Shown here one piece after another: positions 5,786-13,280 of a stretch of DNA of 64,000 bases (positions are counted from its first letter, which is position 1; the number at the start of each line of letters is the position of its first letter). Position numbers and translations under genes: made by a program. The stretch is from assembly GCA_018302765.1 (NCBI GenBank), contig JAGVZG010000002.1:47819-111818 (forward strand). The letters are read 5' to 3'. Under the pieces are notes generated by a model. The model saw nothing but the letters and a program-made list of their open reading frames with translations. It made no database searches and was not told where the DNA came from. This DNA comes from Candidatus Woesearchaeota archaeon (GTDB lineage: Archaea > Nanobdellota > Nanobdellia > SCGC-AAA011-G17 > GW2011-AR18).

Positions 5786-6433
5786 ATGTATTATAAAGAT
5801 TTAGATTATTTAAAACAAGCTTATTCTCAGAGAAAAGAAATAATACAAAATAGATTAAAATATTTCAAAAGTGTCTGGAATGAAGACGAAAAAAGAATAT
5901 TTGCTGAATTATGCTTTTGCTTGTTGACACCGCAAAGCAAAGCAAAACTATGTGATGCTGCAATACAAAATCTAGTAAAAACAAACCTATTATTTACTGG
6001 AAAGGAACAGGACATTAAAGATTATCTAATAGGTGTAAGGTTTAATAATAATAAATCTAGGTATATTACTGAAGCGAGAAATATGTTTACTAAAGACGGT
6101 AAAATTTTTATAAAAGACAAGATTAAACAATTTGACAATGAGTTAGAACTTAGGAATTGGCTAGTGGAAAATGTTAATGGTATTGGATTGAAAGAGGCTG
6201 GGCATTTTATGCGCAATATAGGAATGTATGAAAATGTATCAATTTTAGACAGGCATATTTTAAAAAATTTACATAAACATGGTGTAATAGATGAAATTCC
6301 AAACCCTTTAACAAAAAAACAATACTTGGAAATAGAAGAAAAAATGAAATTATTTTGCAAAGAGGTTGGAATTGGTATTGAAGAAATAGACTTATTGTTC
6401 TGGTCAGAAGAGACAGGAGAAGTATTTAAGTAA
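5786..6433 (+). CDS. ogg: 8-oxoguanine DNA glycosylase/AP lyase (archaeal/Thermotoga Ogg type)
   Basis: ELCFCLLTPQS, RFNNNKSRYI, HhH GIGLKEAGHFMRNIG (catalytic Lys) and ILDRH (catalytic Asp). Confidence 0.9.
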   Translation: MYYKDLDYLKQAYSQRKEIIQNRLKYFKSVWNEDEKRIFAELCFCLLTPQSKAKLCDAAIQNLVKTNLLFTGKEQDIKDYLIGVRFNNNKSRYITEARNMFTKDGKIFIKDKIKQFDNELELRNWLVENVNGIGLKEAGHFMRNIGMYENVSILDRHILKNLHKHGVIDEIPNPLTKKQYLEIEEKMKLFCKEVGIGIEEIDLLFWSEETGEVFK

Positions 6434-7556
6434 AACTATTTATTGTTTTTATTAATTCATTTTCAAACCATTCTTCTTTATCAAATGGAACAAAACAACC
6501 AGCAGCAGTTTCGTGCCCACCACCTACACCAAGTTTAATTAAAATATTTCCAAGATTATAATCAGCTTTTTTTGTTCTTAATGAATATTTTATAACATTT
6601 TTATTAATATCTTTTCCTCTCATAGCAATAACAATACCATATTCAGATTCATCTAGCATAATACTAGAGAACTTGCTCATAAATCCACTTTTATGCATTC
6701 TTACATTATAAAATACCACATTACCTACTACTTTTTTATACTTGTCAAAATTTTTTCTTTCTTCATCAATTAAATTAGATAATGTTAGATAATTTTTATT
6801 TAAATATTTAACACTTGGGTTTTCTGAACCATTGATAAGTTCTTCAAATCTAAATTCCTTATTTTCTAAAATTAGTTTTATTAAACTCTCATTTCCTGTT
6901 TCTTCTTCAATAATAAAAGGAGCCCAAAACATCAAGCTTAAATCAAAAAATTTGGTTTTTTTATTTCCAGCATAATAAATATTATACCTGTCTAATTTAT
7001 TTTCCTTTACTAAATTAATAAGCTCTGGAAATAAATTTCTGTAATCTAAAACTACAGAATTAATTTTATTCCTGCAATTATCAACCAGGTAATCGCAAAC
7101 AGTACCTATAGCACTTATGTCTCTCCCAAATTTTACAGTTTCAGGCAATGCCATATAAACAATATCTGAAGTATTTACATTTGTTAAATTAGAACTTCTT
7201 GGGCTAAGATAAATAATTTCATCAAATTGTGTTAAATCTGTATATTGGATTGCATACCAATCAAAGGCAAGAATTTTTTGTATATTGTTTTTTCTTAATT
7301 CATCTATTTGTTCTTTTTTAAGCCCATTTCTATTACCTTTAAAATTTGGAATTTTCTTGTGATATAATCCGTAAATAATAACAGAAGTTATTCCATCTGG
7401 ATCTTCATCACTAATTATTAGATCATAGTCCTCAACCAAATATATCCTAACTATTTTATAAAATTCCTCTAAATTATGAGCAGTAATAACCCTAACATTA
7501 TTAAATTTATCAAATTCTACACTTAATTGATGGTGATCTACTATAACTAACTTCAT
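6426..7556 (-). CDS. DHH/DHHA1 family phosphoesterase (atypical motif order)
   Basis: DEDPDGITS (motif I), AFD (II), IGTVCD (IV), C-terminal SLR...GGGHETAAG; the only DHH tripeptide is at residues 7-9. Confidence 0.7.
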   Translation of the reverse strand: MKLVIVDHHQLSVEFDKFNNVRVITAHNLEEFYKIVRIYLVEDYDLIISDEDPDGITSVIIYGLYHKKIPNFKGNRNGLKKEQIDELRKNNIQKILAFDWYAIQYTDLTQFDEIIYLSPRSSNLTNVNTSDIVYMALPETVKFGRDISAIGTVCDYLVDNCRNKINSVVLDYRNLFPELINLVKENKLDRYNIYYAGNKKTKFFDLSLMFWAPFIIEEETGNESLIKLILENKEFRFEELINGSENPSVKYLNKNYLTLSNLIDEERKNFDKYKKVVGNVVFYNVRMHKSGFMSKFSSIMLDESEYGIVIAMRGKDINKNVIKYSLRTKKADYNLGNILIKLGVGGGHETAAGCFVPFDKEEWFENELIKTINSFT

Positions 7557-7693
7557 AAAATTTTAATTGAGTTTTAATATAAAAAACCTACTAAAATCAG
7601 AACAGTTTTAAATTTTGATAGAACATTATACTCATTTTTAAAATATATTTTAATCAATCTAAAAATTTAAAAGGATATATAGAAACCAAATTT

Positions 7694-8323
7694 ATGGGTT
7701 GGAATGAAGATTATAGTGTATATAAACATACTTATCTAGACGGCTTGTTATTGCTTGATGGTAACGTTTGTTTTAGTGATAGAGATTTGAGAAATGTCTA
7801 CATTCCAACTTTACAATTAATGAAAGTTCATGAAGATCATCCTATAAAACTTACTTACGGAGGAAGAATATCTCTAAAACCAGAAGGAGATGAAAGATTA
7901 ATAATGCAAATATGTAAAGATCCTGACCAAAATCTTTATGATGGTATTTCTATTTTATTTTGTCCTCCAAGTTATGATTTCCCAGAAGGTAAACAAAAAT
8001 TAGTTGCTAAACAGGGATTTGAATTTTCTGATAATACAAAAGGAGACTTAACAGTAGGTTATGCAGAAGGAAGGGAACTTCCACTTGGATGCGAAGGAAT
8101 AAATACTGTTGTTCAGATACTGCCACCAATTGTATATTCTTATATTGTAAATTTCCTGGGAAGCAAACCCACAATATTTTATTCAGAAAGATATTCTGAA
8201 AGTGGCTTCAAACCTTTAGGCAGAATAAATTTAGAAAAAGATCTTCTTGGTGTTTCAGACGTAACAACAGAGATGATTAAAAAATTAGAAGATAGATTCA
8301 AAATGCCTCTTTTAAAAAAATAA
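7694..8323 (+). CDS. hypothetical protein
   Basis: 209-aa ORF with plausible composition; no motif. Confidence 0.55.
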   Translation: MGWNEDYSVYKHTYLDGLLLLDGNVCFSDRDLRNVYIPTLQLMKVHEDHPIKLTYGGRISLKPEGDERLIMQICKDPDQNLYDGISILFCPPSYDFPEGKQKLVAKQGFEFSDNTKGDLTVGYAEGRELPLGCEGINTVVQILPPIVYSYIVNFLGSKPTIFYSERYSESGFKPLGRINLEKDLLGVSDVTTEMIKKLEDRFKMPLLKK

Positions 8324-8326
8324 ATC

Positions 8327-9181
8327 TTAAATTTTATTTCCTATCAACAGGTCTTCAATTTTTTCCAGGTCATTAATTCTATTTTCTATTGGCAGAGCAT
8401 TGCTGTGCAAATTCCAGAAAACTTTCTCTAGCCATTCCACCCATTCTTTGTCATAAATATTGTATATGAGGTAAACATCCTTATTAATTTCATTATCTTT
8501 ATAGTCACTTTTTTTCTTTTCATCCCTTAATCTAATAATTTTATCATCTATTACAAATCCCCTTAATGGCTGCTCAATATGCCTTACTTCTACAGCATCG
8601 TAGCCAATTAGATTATTAAGCTCCAAAATTTTTTTTATGTTTGCTATAGAAGCTATATCTACCCTACACAGGATTTTTATGTTAATTCTTTTTCTTGCTA
8701 GTTCTACAATAATATCAATCAATCTTTTTCCATTCTCTGTATTATTAATAAATGATATATTACCTGAGAAAATAAACAACTGTCTTGATGTATTTTTTAT
8801 AAGATCTATTAATTTTTGTTCATCTGCTTTGTCATTAGGCATAACAAAAGCGTCCTTTTTATTGTGGTCAACTAAACTATATATATCAAAAGGGTTGAAA
8901 TCCTGCTTTTTCTTCCCAGTTTTTATTTTATCTAGTAATATTTGCTGAGCTGTACTAGCTCTCATGCCTTCCAAATTAGCCCAATAAACAATCTTTAAAG
9001 CTCCTCTGGTACCACCTCTAAATGTTTTTATCTTAATTGTTCCATATTTTTCTATCATATAATTTAGATACTTGTCAGCTGTTACCCAGCTTACTTTTAG
9101 CAGTTCAGAAATTTCTTTAACAGCTCTGGGCTGTTTATAAACAAATTCATTGACTGCTTTTATAGCGTCAGGAGTAAGCAT
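8327..9181 (-). CDS. putative transcriptional regulator: N-terminal HTH plus TrmB/PLD-like C-terminal domain
   Basis: VKEISELLKVSWVTADKYL helix-turn-helix; IKILCR...PLRGFVIDDK resembles the TrmB effector/PLD-like fold. Confidence 0.6.
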   Translation of the reverse strand: MLTPDAIKAVNEFVYKQPRAVKEISELLKVSWVTADKYLNYMIEKYGTIKIKTFRGGTRGALKIVYWANLEGMRASTAQQILLDKIKTGKKKQDFNPFDIYSLVDHNKKDAFVMPNDKADEQKLIDLIKNTSRQLFIFSGNISFINNTENGKRLIDIIVELARKRINIKILCRVDIASIANIKKILELNNLIGYDAVEVRHIEQPLRGFVIDDKIIRLRDEKKKSDYKDNEINKDVYLIYNIYDKEWVEWLEKVFWNLHSNALPIENRINDLEKIEDLLIGNKI

Positions 9182-9258
9182 ATTATTCTAAAACTTAAAC
9201 ACTATATAAGTTTTTTGATGGTTAATTACTATATTTACTAAAACACTTACATACTTAT

Positions 9259-10212
9259 ATGGATTTAGCAGTATGTGACCAATATAAAAAAGTTAAATTA
9301 CAAGTACAAATACACACAAAAGAATTAACAGATTATTTGCACAGCATAGAACATTCTTTGCAATTATTAGAAGATACTAATAAAAGAAAAGATGTAACTT
9401 CTATTTTACTGGAGTTTACAAAAACGTCACAGTTATCTCTACTTGGAGATGAAGCTAAAACTTTAGATGTAGTACTAGAAAATTTACTGGATTTAAGAAG
9501 GGCTAAAAGACCGTTATATAAAAGGTTTAAAATAAAAGTAGGTGAAAAAATAAGAGATATATCTGTACCACAAAAATCATTAGAATTATTTCTTAAATAT
9601 TATGTTTCGCCACTTATAGATCATGCAAAGTGCCATGCTCAATCACATGGTGGTGAAGTGGGATGTACTCCAAAGTACAGCATTAAATCTATCTTACCTG
9701 TTGAATTTGTTTTGTCATTTGATCTTAAAGATGCTTATAAAAATATAGACTTGCAGTATATATTTGATTTTTATTATGATTTAATATTTGAAAAAACAAA
9801 AGACGTTGAGAAAAGCAAGCAAACTGCTGGATTTTTAGCTGGAGTATCAACTGTTTATTATGCAGATCGTGGATATGCACTTCCACAAGGATCACCAATA
9901 TGTTCAAAATTATTTAACAGAGTATTGCTTCCTATTGATAATTTACTATACAAATATTCTTTAGAAATCGGTCTGGATTATGTAAGATGGGTAGATGACT
10001 TTATTTTTAGCTCTAGTGATTGTGGTTTAACATTAGACAAATTTGTTAAAACTTTAGATATTGTCAGAAATTATTTTCCTATATCTGAGAATAAAACATA
10101 CTTTCAAAGAAAACATCCGGTATATCTTTTAGGACATAAAATTGTTGGCACAGATATAAGTGAGGCGACAACAGAGGAGTTGGAAACAAGACGCCAAATT
10201 AATTTATCATGA
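9259..10212 (+). CDS. reverse transcriptase, retron-like but atypical (WVDD)
   Basis: RT motifs in order: YKRFKIK...RDISVP, SHGG, FDLKDAYKNI, LPQGSPICSKLFN, YVRWVDDFIFS, ISENKT, VYLLG. Confidence 0.9.
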   Translation: MDLAVCDQYKKVKLQVQIHTKELTDYLHSIEHSLQLLEDTNKRKDVTSILLEFTKTSQLSLLGDEAKTLDVVLENLLDLRRAKRPLYKRFKIKVGEKIRDISVPQKSLELFLKYYVSPLIDHAKCHAQSHGGEVGCTPKYSIKSILPVEFVLSFDLKDAYKNIDLQYIFDFYYDLIFEKTKDVEKSKQTAGFLAGVSTVYYADRGYALPQGSPICSKLFNRVLLPIDNLLYKYSLEIGLDYVRWVDDFIFSSSDCGLTLDKFVKTLDIVRNYFPISENKTYFQRKHPVYLLGHKIVGTDISEATTEELETRRQINLS

Positions 10213-10258
10213 TATAATTAGATTAATCAGCCTATATGCAAATAGAACATGGATAAAT

Positions 10259-10582
10259 ATGAAAAGTAGAACTAATGATATAGAAAGCAAATATAGAGTT
10301 AAAAAATCATATTCACAAGTTAAACAAAACATAGAACTTTCTTATCTTAGAAGCTTGGATATTGATACAAAAATATTATTGTCTTTTTATCTATTTGGAG
10401 AAATCCCTCAAGTTTTAGTTGCTTTTATAGTAGGCGTTAAACAAGAAACTGTTTCTAGAAGTGTTAAAAGACTAAAGAAAGAAGGTAAAATAGAAACTAT
10501 TGGCAGAAAAAAACAACTATATGGAAGTGTTGCTAAAGATTACAAGATTGAACTAAGTGAACTATCTGCTTTATTAATATAA
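10259..10582 (+). CDS. winged helix-turn-helix protein (MarR-like)
   Basis: IPQVLVAFIVGVKQETVSRSVKRLKKEGKIE; ATG at 10259 chosen (ORF track opens at 10160). Confidence 0.65.
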   Translation: MKSRTNDIESKYRVKKSYSQVKQNIELSYLRSLDIDTKILLSFYLFGEIPQVLVAFIVGVKQETVSRSVKRLKKEGKIETIGRKKQLYGSVAKDYKIELSELSALLI

Positions 10583-10628
10583 AAATTAACAAAAACATTA
10601 AAATATCCAATAGATACTATATTTTACA

Positions 10629-12626
10629 ATGTTAATATTTACAAAAGAGGATTTATCATTAGACAAAGCCAAGGAAAAGGAGTGGATTATAACAAATGGC
10701 TTAGGAAGTTATTCCTCATCTACAGTTATTGGATTAAATACTAGAAAGTACCATGGATTGCTTGTTGCTGCATTAAAAAAACCATTAAATAGAAATCTGT
10801 TATTAAGCAAATTTGAGGAAGAGGTTATAATAGAAAACAGGTCTTACAAGTTAGGAATAAATAAATATCCTGAAGTTTATTACCCACAAGGCAATGATTA
10901 TTTAGAGGGTTTTGTATTTGGTATTTATCCTACTTTTAATTATAAAGTTGAAAATATAGACATAATAAAATCAATCTGCATGATTGCAAATAACAATGCA
11001 GTTGTTGTTTCTTATAAAATAATCTCAGAAAAACCATTTAGATTAAAAGTTATGCCATTAATTAATTGCAGGGAATTTCATAGTATTACTAAAGAACCAG
11101 GCTGGGTATTTAATCAATCAGCAGGGCAAAGAACAACAGTTATCAGGCCAAGCTATGAAGGATCTCCAGCAATAATTATGGGCTGTGATAAAGGCGTATA
11201 CAAACAAAAAGGCTTGTGGTTTTACAATATGGAGTATGAACAAGAAGTACTAAGGGGCTATGATTACACAGAAAATCATTTTTGTCCTGGAGAATTTATT
11301 GTTGATATAAAAAAAGGAAATAGCATTGTAAATTTTTTAGTTGTTGGGGACAATGCTGATGAAGCTTACATATCATTTGACAATTTATATTCTTCAGATG
11401 AGAAAGAATACAAAAAATTCTTTGAATATGAAATCAATAGGATAAAATCACTGGTAAAAACATGCTATTCTTTTAATAGTATAAAACAAGATGTTTTACT
11501 GCCTTACTTATTGCAGGCTTCAGATCAGTTTATAGTAAAAAATCCAACAACAGACAGCAAATCAGTAATTGCTGGTTATCATTGGTTTGATGATTATGGA
11601 AGAGACGCTCTTATTTCACTTCCAGGAATTTGTTTAACTACTGGAAGAATCAATGAAGCCAAGGAACTGCTACTGCATTATGCAAGGCAATGTAAGAATG
11701 GATTAATACCTAACAGAACAAAAGATAGTGGAGATGTAGAATATTCTTCAGTTGATACATCACTTTGGTTTATTTATGCAACTTACAAATTCTACAAATA
11801 CACAAATAATTTAGATTTTATAAGATTAAATCTGTGGAGTAAAATAAAGGAAATAATAAATTACTATAAATTTAGTACAGGTTTTGGAATTGAAATGAAG
11901 CAAGATGGTTTAATTTCTACAAATTCTGATTTACCTTTGACTTGGATGGATACAAAGTACACACTAAGGAAAGGTAAGTGTGTTGAGATAAATGCTTTAT
12001 GGTACAATGCATTAAAAATTTCAGAGCTATTTGCTAAAAGATTTAAAGAAGATTTTGAAGAATATTTAGTTATTAGCAACTTAGTAAAAAAATCATTTGG
12101 TGATAAATTCTGGAATCATGAAGAGAATTGTTTATATGACAGAATTGAAAATAATTTTAAGGATGCAAGTATAAGACCAAACCAGGTATTTGCTATTTCA
12201 TTACCATTTAGTATTTTAAATCTAAAAAAAGAATACTTTGTTGTTAAAAAAATTACAGAAGACCTGCTTACACCATATGGATTAAGAAGCTTAAGCAATA
12301 AAGACAAAAATTATATTGGGGTTTATAAAGGAAATCAAGAAGAAAGAGACAAAGCTTATCATAATGGGACTTCATGGGGCTGGCTATTAGGCCCTTATAT
12401 TACAGCTTATTTAAAAATTCATGACTATTCTAAAAAAGGAAAAGAAGAAGCAACTGAAAAAATAATAAAAAACATTGTGCATAGTTTGAAAGACTATGGC
12501 ATAGGAACCATTTCTGAAATATACGATGGAGATTTTCCTTATACTTCAAGAGGATGTATAAGCCAGGCTTGGAGCGTAGCTGAGATAACAAGGGCATATG
12601 TTGAAGATATATTAAAAAACCAGTAA
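10629..12626 (+). CDS. glycogen debranching enzyme (amylo-alpha-1,6-glucosidase, archaeal type)
   Basis: EWIITNGLGSYSS, RKYHGLL, IAGYHWFDDYGRD, TWMD, VEINALWYNAL, IRPNQ, AYHNGT, SQAWS. Confidence 0.9.
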   Translation: MLIFTKEDLSLDKAKEKEWIITNGLGSYSSSTVIGLNTRKYHGLLVAALKKPLNRNLLLSKFEEEVIIENRSYKLGINKYPEVYYPQGNDYLEGFVFGIYPTFNYKVENIDIIKSICMIANNNAVVVSYKIISEKPFRLKVMPLINCREFHSITKEPGWVFNQSAGQRTTVIRPSYEGSPAIIMGCDKGVYKQKGLWFYNMEYEQEVLRGYDYTENHFCPGEFIVDIKKGNSIVNFLVVGDNADEAYISFDNLYSSDEKEYKKFFEYEINRIKSLVKTCYSFNSIKQDVLLPYLLQASDQFIVKNPTTDSKSVIAGYHWFDDYGRDALISLPGICLTTGRINEAKELLLHYARQCKNGLIPNRTKDSGDVEYSSVDTSLWFIYATYKFYKYTNNLDFIRLNLWSKIKEIINYYKFSTGFGIEMKQDGLISTNSDLPLTWMDTKYTLRKGKCVEINALWYNALKISELFAKRFKEDFEEYLVISNLVKKSFGDKFWNHEENCLYDRIENNFKDASIRPNQVFAISLPFSILNLKKEYFVVKKITEDLLTPYGLRSLSNKDKNYIGVYKGNQEERDKAYHNGTSWGWLLGPYITAYLKIHDYSKKGKEEATEKIIKNIVHSLKDYGIGTISEIYDGDFPYTSRGCISQAWSVAEITRAYVEDILKNQ

Positions 12627-12788: not shown

Positions 12789-13280
12789 ATGTATGATCCA
12801 AAAAAAGCACACTATATTGTTGTAACAGGAATAATTATTAAACATGAAAAATTTTTAATTACAAAAAGAGCGCCAACTGAAAAAGCATTTCCAAACCAAT
12901 GGACTGTTCCGGGCGGGAAATTAGAATTAGATGACTACGCAAAAAGACCAAAAGACACTTCTGCCCATTGGTATAATATTTTTGAAGACTTGTTAAAAAG
13001 AGAAGTTATGGAAGAAGTTGGTTTGACTATGAAAAATATTCGTTATTTAACAAGTCTTTCATACATTCGTTCTGATAATATACCTACAATTATTGTTAGT
13101 CTTTTTGCTGACTACCATGAAGGAGAAGTTAAACTTTGTCCTGCCCTTACAGAATACGCTTGGGTAACTCTCAAAGAAGCAAAGAATTATGAATTAATTG
13201 AAGGCATATATGAAGAATTGGAAATGCTTGATAAAATCCTTAAAGGAAAAGAAGTTAGGGTTTGGCAAAAGAAAGAATAG
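12789..13280 (+). CDS. NUDIX hydrolase
   Basis: WTVPGGK...KREVMEEVGL Nudix box with an insertion. Confidence 0.85.
   Translation: MYDPKKAHYIVVTGIIIKHEKFLITKRAPTEKAFPNQWTVPGGKLELDDYAKRPKDTSAHWYNIFEDLLKREVMEEVGLTMKNIRYLTSLSYIRSDNIPTIIVSLFADYHEGEVKLCPALTEYAWVTLKEAKNYELIEGIYEELEMLDKILKGKEVRVWQKKE

What the first reader, a model, noticed from the sequence alone, without database searches (positions are those of the whole stretch)
9259..10212. Atypical stand-alone reverse transcriptase (WVDD, no thumb) in a DPANN-like genome
Seen: full RT palm with LPQGSP and RWVDD instead of YADD. The retron NAxxH position reads SIKSI and the VTG position reads YLLG. The ORF stops about 25 aa after that, so there is essentially no thumb, and there is an 80-aa N-terminal extension. 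Known: LPQGxP is the retron/group II pattern, whereas DGR RTs typically have PIGNLTSQ; retrons need an msr-msd RNA. Inference: an unclassified RT lineage, possibly a defence or regulatory retroelement using an unknown template or protein priming.
Basis: partly seen in the sequence, partly recalled or inferred. Interest (0 to 1): 0.8.

Follow-up and report, generated by a model that had tools for sequence, protein, structure and literature searches.

The report
Thumbless retron-like reverse transcriptase, DPANN archaea
This is an intact gene for a stripped-down reverse transcriptase from a small, apparently undescribed family found only in tiny DPANN archaea; it is related to bacterial retron enzymes but lacks their thumb domain, their RNA partner and their effector, so how it makes DNA is unknown.

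Summary
The ORF at 9259-10212 (+, 317 aa) is real. It belongs to a discrete family of about 70 sequence clusters, all short, seen only in Woese-, Pace- and Nanoarchaeota and present in 5 of 151 genomes of its order.

Retron reverse transcriptases are the nearest relatives by profile and by fold (Ec86 E 2e-22; Z 19-21). The family still lies outside all described retron types. It scores at most 69 bits on retron models where true retron RTs score 200-480, and it sits on the longest stem in the tree.

Two confident models show fingers and palm only, with no thumb. The short C-terminus is family-wide, so this is not a truncated pseudogene. Catalytic residues are invariant. No conserved neighbouring ncRNA or effector exists, and the downstream wHTH ORF is an orphan.

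In this clade the RT always lies divergent from a TrmB-like regulator gene (13 of 13 loci), sharing a conserved 77-nt promoter region.

This copy alone lacks the family-invariant histidine (H145I), the conserved W136 and the C-terminal YxxW motif, so it may be impaired.

Earlier reports of this scan describe what appears to be the same family in other DPANN genomes.

The parts
9259..10212 (+). Reverse transcriptase gene, 317 aa. It has fingers and palm only. Motif A is D155, motif B is LPQGSP 208-213, motif C is RWVDD 243-247, the motif D lysine is K279, and the primer-grip hairpin is YLLG 289-292. There is no thumb.
   Evidence: invariant catalytic columns
9679..9693 (+). SIKSI (residues 141-145), the position that aligns with the retron region X 'NAxxH' motif. 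The family has S[IL]xxH, and this copy alone has I in place of the invariant H. The nearby C136 replaces the family W.
   Evidence: alignment to Ec86 NATPH; 60 of 60 others have H; 54 of 60 have W
9182..9258 (.). A 77-nt divergent promoter region shared by c1 and the RT. It holds a conserved block TTAAACACTATATAAGTTTTTTGAT...TAAAACACTTAYATA just before the RT ATG, and it has no significant RNA structure.
   Evidence: conserved in the window, L002, L031, L009 and L030, and duplicated before the next gene in L030; the composite motif is unique in the genome; fold z = -1.05 and +0.29
8327..9181 (-). c1: a 284-aa protein with a winged helix and a TrmB/PLD-like C-terminal domain, a probable transcription regulator. 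It is divergently paired with the RT in every locus of this RT clade.
   Evidence: 13 of 13 clade-A loci; 39 of 151 genomes; TrmB-like neighbours; lead only
10259..10582 (+). An orphan wHTH ORF of 107 aa from the ATG (140 aa from the GTG at 10160, which would overlap the RT 3' end in another frame). It is adjacent to the RT but not a conserved partner.
   Evidence: frame; the downstream genes of other loci are non-homologous; no match in 26 genomes of the taxonomic family

Best explanation
SHOWN. The gene encodes an intact polymerase with a reverse-transcriptase fold. It belongs to a small, discrete family restricted to DPANN archaea. Its closest relatives are bacterial retron RTs, but it lies outside every described retron type. 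The whole family consists of fingers and palm only: the protein ends shortly after the primer-grip hairpin, followed by a short or disordered tail instead of a thumb. Motif C is RW[VGI]DD. All catalytic residues are invariant, as is the aromatic residue at the steric-gate position, and the gene is under moderate purifying selection. It is a patchy accessory gene that has stayed at fixed chromosomal sites. In this clade it is always divergent from a TrmB-like wHTH regulator gene, with a conserved 77-nt shared promoter. There is no conserved adjacent non-coding RNA and no conserved effector gene.

INFERRED. It is a stand-alone DNA polymerase that uses dNTPs, and its transcription is set by the neighbouring regulator. 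Without a thumb it probably makes only short DNA products. Its template and primer would be supplied from elsewhere: an RNA encoded at another locus, its own transcript, or none at all. The biological role is most likely an accessory, defence-like or stress-linked function rather than housekeeping.

THIS COPY. It has lost the family-invariant histidine (H145I), the conserved W136 (now C) and the C-terminal YxxW motif, so it may be weakened or altered in function.
For: Identity: Pfam RVT_1. The best PADLOC and NCBIfam hits are retron RTs. Profile against PDB: Ec86 2e-22, then Ec67, Ec83, Ec78 and Eco8, with group II, DRT2 and AbiK at about 1e-8. Foldseek and VIA put retron RTs on top (Z 19-21, rmsd 2.7-3.2, about 232 residues aligned).

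Discrete clade: 73 representatives at E<=1e-30, all about 290-411 aa, followed by a sharp drop in score. The tree gives one split with SH-aLRT 100 and a stem of about 1.2 substitutions per site against a median of 0.12.

Thumbless: model 41-307 aligns to Ec86 21-260. The median tail after the LLG glycine is 41 aa, and the long tails are acidic. The model of the longest-tailed member shows only low-confidence turns and disorder after the hairpin.

Active site: R99, D155, G211, R221, R243, D246, D247 and K279 are invariant in 61 sequences.

Selection: dN/dS is 0.32-0.34, against 0.04-0.06 for c1.

Distribution: 5 of 151 genomes of the order, and only DPANN record titles.

No ncRNA: the flanks are 77 nt upstream and at most about 47 nt downstream. 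There is no Rfam hit, no meaningful repeats, no fold signal, and only promoter-like conservation in the flanks of 19 loci.

No effector: the downstream genes are non-homologous or housekeeping.

c1 linkage: 13 of 13 clade-A loci. All 5 RT genomes have c1, against a base rate of 39 of 151.

Copy-specific losses.
Against: No product, template or phenotype has been observed, so the mechanism is inference. An ncRNA that overlaps coding sequence or lies elsewhere in the genome cannot be excluded. The TrmB-like assignment of c1 rests on weak Pfam hints and lead-level atlas matches (TM about 0.5). The RT-c1 linkage could be inherited synteny rather than regulation. The patchy distribution fits an accessory role, but the loci are not defence islands: the neighbours are repair, replication and translation genes. 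The losses of H145, W136 and the tail motif could mean that this copy no longer works.
Confidence: 0.6

Rival explanations
1. It is a canonical retron: the RT reverse-transcribes an adjacent msr-msd RNA into msDNA and works with the downstream wHTH protein as its effector, as in the HTH-associated retron types VI and IX.
For: Retron RTs are the nearest relatives. The family keeps the most conserved residue of each retron motif, the H of NAxxH and the G of VTG (criteria from PMC7736814). A wHTH ORF follows the RT in this genome.
Against: There is no non-coding space for an msr-msd next to the gene in any of 19 loci, and no Rfam hit, inverted repeats or fold signal. The thumb that holds the ncRNA SL-1 handle in retrons (PMC12475279) is absent. 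The wHTH ORF is an orphan, not found in 26 related genomes or in other RT loci. Scores are far below retron family thresholds (67 against 235 bits; at most 69 against 200-480 bits). This copy lacks even the histidine.
Confidence: 0.06
2. It is a template-independent or protein-primed DNA polymerase, working like AbiK, Abi-P2 or DRT4. On a trigger it makes random or homopolymeric ssDNA, possibly primed from its own flexible C-terminal tail.
For: Prokaryotic RTs that lack a canonical thumb (AbiA, AbiK, Abi-P2, DRT4) synthesise DNA without a template (bioRxiv 10.64898/2026.10.27.754916). This is a single-gene unit with no ncRNA. Most members have a flexible tail with a conserved aromatic [YF]-x-x-W motif.
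Against: Abi and DRT4 enzymes replace the thumb with a large helical lobe, which is absent here. Sequence and fold similarity to Abi and DRT enzymes is much weaker than to retrons. The tail tyrosine is not conserved in the second clade, and this copy lacks the motif altogether.
Confidence: 0.15
3. In this genome the gene is a decaying relic: the frame is still open, but the copy is functionally dead or dying.
For: It is the only one of 61 members without the invariant H145. It also has W136C and the shortest tail, without YxxW. Constraint is relaxed (dN/dS about 0.3 against about 0.05 for the neighbour). A related genome carries a frameshifted copy (G149/L031, 229+67 aa). The gene has been lost from most related genomes.
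Against: The 317-codon frame is intact in a 29% GC genome where stop codons arise easily. All catalytic residues are retained. The promoter block is conserved. dN/dS is well below 1.
Confidence: 0.2
4. It is a domesticated cellular RT with a role in DNA repair or replication, in the manner of the group II-like G2L4 RT.
For: It sits at fixed chromosomal positions among PolX, Ogg, a RecJ-like DHH protein and RNase T-like exonuclease genes (clade A), or Kae1, MCM and RFC (clade B). Its inheritance looks vertical, with RT and c1 identities falling together.
Against: It is present in only about 3% of genomes of the order. In these tiny genomes most neighbours are informational genes anyway. There is no operon link to the repair genes.
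Confidence: 0.08

Closest known systems
Bacterial retron reverse transcriptases (Ec86/Eco1, Ec67/Eco2, Ec78/Eco7, Ec83, Eco8; Mestre types I-XIII)
   Same: They are the best match by profile (Ec86 2e-22) and by fold (Z 19-21). They share the LPQG(S/A)P motif B, a histidine at the region X position in the family, a glycine at the region Y position, and a compact size of about 300 aa.
   Different: The family has no thumb (Ec86 residues 261-320 are unmatched). Motif C is RWxDD instead of YADD, region X reads S[IL]xxH instead of NAxxH, and region Y reads LLG instead of VTG. It has no contiguous msr-msd and no conserved effector. It is archaeal (DPANN) only. Scores are at most 69 bits on retron models where real retron RTs score 200-480. 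It forms a separate clade on a long stem.
Abi/UG thumbless RTs (AbiK, AbiA, Abi-P2, DRT4)
   Same: They lack a canonical thumb and are single-gene units without a neighbouring effector.
   Different: Those enzymes carry a large C-terminal helical lobe in place of the thumb, and this family has nothing there. Similarity is weak: AbiK 1e-7 by profile and AbiA Z 14.9.
DGR reverse transcriptases of DPANN archaea
   Same: They occur in the same hosts, and this very genome has two DGR-type RT genes.
   Different: DGR RTs carry (I/L)GNLTSQ and YVDD and have a thumb. This RT has LPQGSP and RWVDD, and DGR structures match it less well than retron RTs do (Z 15 against 19-21).

Membership tests
Reverse transcriptase superfamily (Pfam RVT_1) | Score above the curated cut-off, with the catalytic Asp of motif A and the DD of motif C | tested here: met
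   41 bits against a cut-off of 29.6. D155, D246 and D247 are invariant in 61 sequences.
Retron | RT scores as a retron RT on curated models | tested here: not met
   NCBIfam retron_St85_RT scores 67 bits against a cut-off of 235. The best PADLOC retron model scores 69 bits, while the nearest true retron RTs score 200-480 bits on the same models.
Retron | Region X NAxxH motif (H most conserved; PMC7736814) | tested here: not met
   This copy reads SIKSI. The family reads S[IL]xxH, with H in 60 of 60 other members, so only the H is shared at family level.
Retron | Region Y VTG triplet in RT7 (G most conserved) | tested here: not met
   It reads LLG, and only the G is shared (G292 is nearly invariant).
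Retron | Contiguous msr-msd ncRNA with flanking inverted repeats | tested here: not met
   The flanks are 77 nt upstream and at most about 47 nt downstream. There is no Rfam hit, no significant repeats and no fold signal. No non-coding block is conserved across 19 loci other than a promoter-like one. An RNA that overlaps coding sequence or lies elsewhere is not excluded.
Retron | Thumb domain that anchors the ncRNA handle | tested here: not met
   The model ends where Ec86 residue 260 aligns. The long-tailed member has a disordered tail.
Retron | Conserved associated effector gene or fused domain | tested here: not met
   The downstream genes are non-homologous, orphan or housekeeping.
Group II intron RT/maturase | Score on TIGR04416, and an X/maturase (thumb) domain | tested here: not met
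   17.9 bits against a cut-off of 300. There is no domain after the palm.
DRT/UG-Abi RTs | Score on DRT or Abi models, and a C-terminal helical lobe | tested here: not met
   Drt2 scores 24 bits against a cut-off of 390. No UG or Abi model appears among the top PADLOC hits. There is no C-terminal lobe.
DGR RT | (I/L)GxxxSQ motif in RT4 | tested here: not met
   It reads LPQGSPICSKLFN. The genome's two other RTs do carry GMPLGNLTSQ.

The most novel reading that the evidence does not exclude
The family is a new class of archaeal RT system: a retron-derived polymerase core without a thumb, switched by a ligand-sensing TrmB-like regulator. It would make DNA by a mode not yet described, for instance with the substrate held by a partner or an oligomer in trans, or with priming anchored on its conserved aromatic C-terminal tail. 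It could be the first RT-based accessory or defence function specific to DPANN archaea other than DGRs.
Probability: 0.25. Interest if true: 0.8.

Novelty: new variant of a known kind. Interest (0 to 1): 0.55.

Why it matters
Every well-studied prokaryotic RT has either a thumb or a large domain in its place to hold the primer-template. A conserved, catalytically intact family with neither raises the question of how a bare fingers-palm core can synthesise DNA at all. It would also widen the retron-related radiation into archaea, where apart from DGRs and group II introns almost nothing is known about RT function. At about 300 aa it would be one of the smallest RT cores, which is of possible interest for engineering. 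For this specific gene the interest is lower, because it has lost three family-conserved features.

Tried and rejected
1. Hidden thumb by frameshift into the overlapping 10160..10582 frame: rejected. The three-frame translation and the family alignment show that the RT frame stays correct through the conserved EE motif. The alternative frame is an orphan wHTH, and an 'RSW' in that frame overlaps the conserved EELE codons and is coincidental.

2. TGA read-through: a TAG follows two codons later.

3. RT-wHTH two-gene module: rejected.

4. c1 as an RT-specific partner or a thumb supplied in trans: rejected. c1 occurs in at least 1783 clusters and in 39 of 151 genomes, mostly without the RT.

5. 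c2 (a metallophosphoesterase) and the clade-B neighbours DUF192 and Kae1 as partners: judged to be synteny only.

6. Downstream genes as variable effectors: no PADLOC defence hit. One is a borderline M78/IrrE peptidase and one is eIF2-gamma.

7. ncRNA searches (Rfam, repeats, folding) gave nothing. A hairpin over the RT start codon (141-nt window, z = -2.33) is not clearly conserved.

8. The bacterial promoter and terminator scan was uninformative for an archaeon.

9. The protein atlas gave only generic RT clusters.

11. An exact 'empty site' comparison failed, because RT-less relatives have other genes beside c1.

12. Literature searches found no description of this clade in the held library.

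Full report
OBSERVATION

The ORF 9259..10212 (+) encodes 317 aa. It contains SIKSI (141-145), LPQGSP (208-213), RWVDD (243-247) and YLLG (289-292), and it stops 25 residues after G292. It passes the Pfam RVT_1 cut-off (41 against 29.6 bits).

An ORF in another frame (10160..10582) overlaps the 3' end. Three-frame translation and the family alignment show that this is not a frameshifted continuation of the RT. It is a small wHTH protein, probably starting at ATG 10259.

FAMILY

A word-indexed search found ten homologues of 321-391 aa in Woesearchaeota and Nanoarchaeota MAGs. An exhaustive profile search found 73 representatives at E<=1e-30, all about 290-411 aa. Scores then drop sharply to generic RT hits near 1e-20. 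Genome-collection hits carry only Woese-, Pace- and Nanoarchaeota titles. The one contig labelled 'Patescibacteria' (L043) matches the query at the same coordinates, identity and E-value as the Woesearchaeota contig L042, so it is probably a mis-binned copy of the same contig.

The family was found in 5 of 151 genomes sampled from the window's order, and in 3 of 91 high-quality ones. Both other genomes of the same genus have it. The own genome (1.02 Mb, 28 contigs) has a single copy.

RELATION TO KNOWN RT CLASSES

The best PADLOC hits are retron RT models of several types (III-A, II-A, X, IX, VI) at 1e-17 to 1e-20 and at most 69 bits, with no one type standing out. NCBIfam gives retron_St85_RT 67 bits against a cut-off of 235, Drt2 24 against 390, and group II 18 against 300.

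A family profile against PDB sequences ranks retron RTs first (Ec86 2e-22, then Ec67, Ec83, Ec78, Kva2, Eco8). Group II RTs, DRT2 and AbiK follow at about 1e-8.

The nearest non-family proteins in the exhaustive search are genuine retron RTs, scoring 200-480 bits on the same PADLOC models. In a maximum-likelihood tree of 41 family rows and 69 such neighbours, the family is one side of a split with SH-aLRT 100. The stem is about 1.2 substitutions per site, the longest internal branch in the tree, against a median of 0.12. So the family is the sister of, or a very divergent offshoot from, the retron RT radiation, and it belongs to no described type.

Mestre et al. (PMC7736814) name H as the most conserved residue of NAxxH and G as the most conserved residue of VTG. 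The family keeps exactly these two residues (S[IL]xxH and LLG) and nothing more of either motif.

STRUCTURE

The AF2 model of the window protein is confident (pLDDT 92.9, pTM 0.90). Foldseek and VIA place retron RTs on top: Eco2 Z 21.0, and Ec86 Z 20.1 with rmsd 3.1 over 232 residues. Group II, G2L4, DRT2 and DGR RTs score Z about 15.

Model residues 41-307 align to Ec86 residues 21-260, so the last ~60 residues of Ec86, the thumb, have no counterpart. The true N-terminal extension over retron RTs is about 20-45 aa rather than 80.

Across 61 members the tail after the LLG glycine is 25-63 aa long, with a median of 41. The long tails are acidic. A model of the longest-tailed member, P0011 (pLDDT 83), shows one short helix after the hairpin, then two low-confidence turns and disorder. 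Thumblessness is therefore a family trait, and the pseudogene-by-truncation reading is refuted.

CATALYTIC COMPETENCE AND SELECTION

R99, D155, G211, R221, R243, D246, D247 and K279 are invariant in 61 sequences. The aromatic residue at the steric-gate position (DLxxA[FY]) is kept, which from established RT knowledge points to dNTP use.

dN/dS is 0.32-0.34 for the RT and 0.04-0.06 for the neighbouring c1 gene in the same genome pairs. That is purifying but relaxed selection, as is common for accessory genes. One related genome (G149/L031) has a frameshifted copy.

THIS COPY IS ODD

The window protein is the only one of 61 without the histidine (H145I; 60 of 60 others have H). It has C in place of the conserved W136 (54 of 60 have W). 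It has the shortest tail and lacks the C-terminal [YF]-x-x-W motif that most members carry. P0001 is the same sequence and adds nothing independent.

CONTEXT

Nineteen non-redundant loci were compared.

Clade A, which includes the window, always has c1 (window 8327..9181, minus strand) upstream on the opposite strand. This holds in 13 of 13 loci, with gaps of 77-1951 nt, and the two genes are directly adjacent in most. The far flank of c1 varies, with at least 6 different genes.

Clade B has an extra N-terminal AYFxGPWLP motif and lies between DUF192 and Kae1 instead.

c1 is a conserved family of about 278 aa with no Pfam assignment. It was found in 39 of 151 genomes of the order, including all five with the RT. 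Its nearest named neighbours by features and by structure are TrmB-type regulators with a PLD-like effector domain (lead-level evidence only).

The 77-nt c1-RT spacer carries a conserved TATA-containing block, TTAAACACTATATAAGTTTTTTGAT...TAAAACACTTAYATA. The block is unique in the genome and conserved in five loci, and in L030 it is duplicated in front of the gene after the RT. This is the layout of a regulator and its divergent target. Regulation itself is inferred and has not been shown.

NO ncRNA AND NO EFFECTOR

There is no Rfam match in 7500-11000. Repeats there are only AT-rich noise. The intergenic folds are unremarkable, with z = -1.05, +0.29 and +1.23. Across the loci the upstream spacers are short and promoter-like, and the next gene starts within a few to about 60 nt of the RT stop.

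The gene after the RT differs from locus to locus: the orphan wHTH here, a borderline M78/IrrE peptidase in L002, eIF2-gamma in L033, and unknowns elsewhere. None matches a PADLOC defence model convincingly. The wHTH ORF has no match in 26 other genomes of the taxonomic family.

In retrons the thumb holds the ncRNA SL-1 handle (PMC12475279), so losing the thumb fits with the absence of a contiguous msr-msd.

MECHANISM

What is shown is an intact, conserved fingers-palm polymerase core. It has no thumb, no neighbouring RNA and no neighbouring effector, and it sits at a fixed site beside a probable regulator.

I infer a stand-alone, transcriptionally regulated DNA polymerase of low processivity, whose template and primer come from elsewhere or are not needed.

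Among prokaryotic RTs without a canonical thumb, AbiK, AbiA, Abi-P2 and DRT4 synthesise DNA without a template, but they carry a helical lobe in the thumb's place. This family has nothing there, so neither the retron mode nor the Abi mode can simply be transferred. The patchy distribution argues for an accessory role. The absence of defence-island context and the fixed chromosomal position argue against a mobile defence cassette.

NOVELTY

No paper in the held library describes this clade. The 2021 review counts retrons as 4% of archaeal RTs and DGRs as about 80% of DPANN RTs (PMC8632793). The 2026 SPIRE retron survey does not mention archaea and states that its threshold under-represents divergent lineages (PMC13712802).

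Earlier follow-up reports of this scan (e1-3764472, e1-4805012, e1-3537001) describe lone, compact, retron-related RTs confined to DPANN archaea in other genomes. This is very probably the same family, although I could not compare the sequences.

New in this report: the structural demonstration of thumblessness in two members, the strict c1 linkage of one clade, the conserved promoter block, the C-terminal motif, and the loss of the invariant histidine in this copy.

LIMITS

The tree lacks outgroups from other RT classes.

Noticed in passing
G000:C26:677-1594 (L052:677-1594, +) and G000:C10:88629-89468 (L053:2130-2969, -): The same 1.02-Mb genome has two further RT genes, both DGR-type (GMPLGNLTSQ, YVDDF). 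The C10 copy lacks the N-terminal half of the RT and has about 100 extra C-terminal residues. The C26 copy lies near a contig start. I did not look for template or variable repeats.
   Followed up: partly
window 8327-9181 (-): c1 is a strongly conserved (dN/dS about 0.05) but patchy DPANN protein family of about 278 aa with no Pfam family. It occurs in at least 1783 clusters and in 39 of 151 genomes of the order, sometimes in two copies. It has a winged helix and a TrmB/PLD-like C-terminal domain, with invariant FSGN.S, IK..CR.D and P.R motifs.
   Followed up: partly
C-termini of family proteins (alignment A3); absent from window 10135-10209: Most family members end in a conserved [YF]-x-x-W motif about 40 aa after the LLG glycine. 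Clade-B members continue with an acidic tail that ends in F, reminiscent of short partner-docking tails such as the bacterial SSB C-terminus. Its function is unknown.
   Followed up: partly
L030:5891-6020 and L030:4860-4935: In a same-genus genome the ~60-nt promoter/leader block that precedes the RT is duplicated in front of the unrelated 145-aa gene after the RT, and a 182-aa ORF separates c1 from the RT.
   Followed up: partly
L031:2647-3466 (= G149:C27): The RT copy in a related genome is split by a frameshift into pieces of 229 and 67 aa. It is either a pseudogene or an assembly error.
   Followed up: no
window 9246-9282: A 9-bp hairpin spans the RT start codon (a 141-nt window folds with z = -2.33; 1 of 200 shuffles fold as well). 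In L002 only about 5 bp look pairable, so conservation is doubtful.
   Followed up: partly
L002:6969-7397 (+): The gene that starts 2 nt after the RT stop in the closest homologous locus is a 142-aa HExxH protein. It is a borderline match to the M78/IrrE peptidase family (22 bits, equal to the cut-off) and a weak match to CapP. This type often pairs with HTH repressors that control mobile or defence genes.
   Followed up: partly
L004:4264-4737 and L004:5714-5899; L007:5738-5896: Clade-B loci carry a free-standing 157-aa ORF with only a PolX 'DNA_pol_B_thumb' domain about 1.3 kb upstream of the RT. They also carry a small, lysine-rich ORF of 52-61 aa immediately upstream. Neither was examined further.
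   Followed up: no
window 6426-7556 (-), 5786-6433 (+), 10629-12626 (+), 12789-13280 (+): The neighbours of the locus are ordinary cellular genes: a DHH/DHHA1 RecJ-like protein, an Ogg-type glycosylase, a glycogen debranching enzyme and a Nudix hydrolase. GC content is flat at about 0.29-0.30, with no sign of an island.
   Followed up: partly
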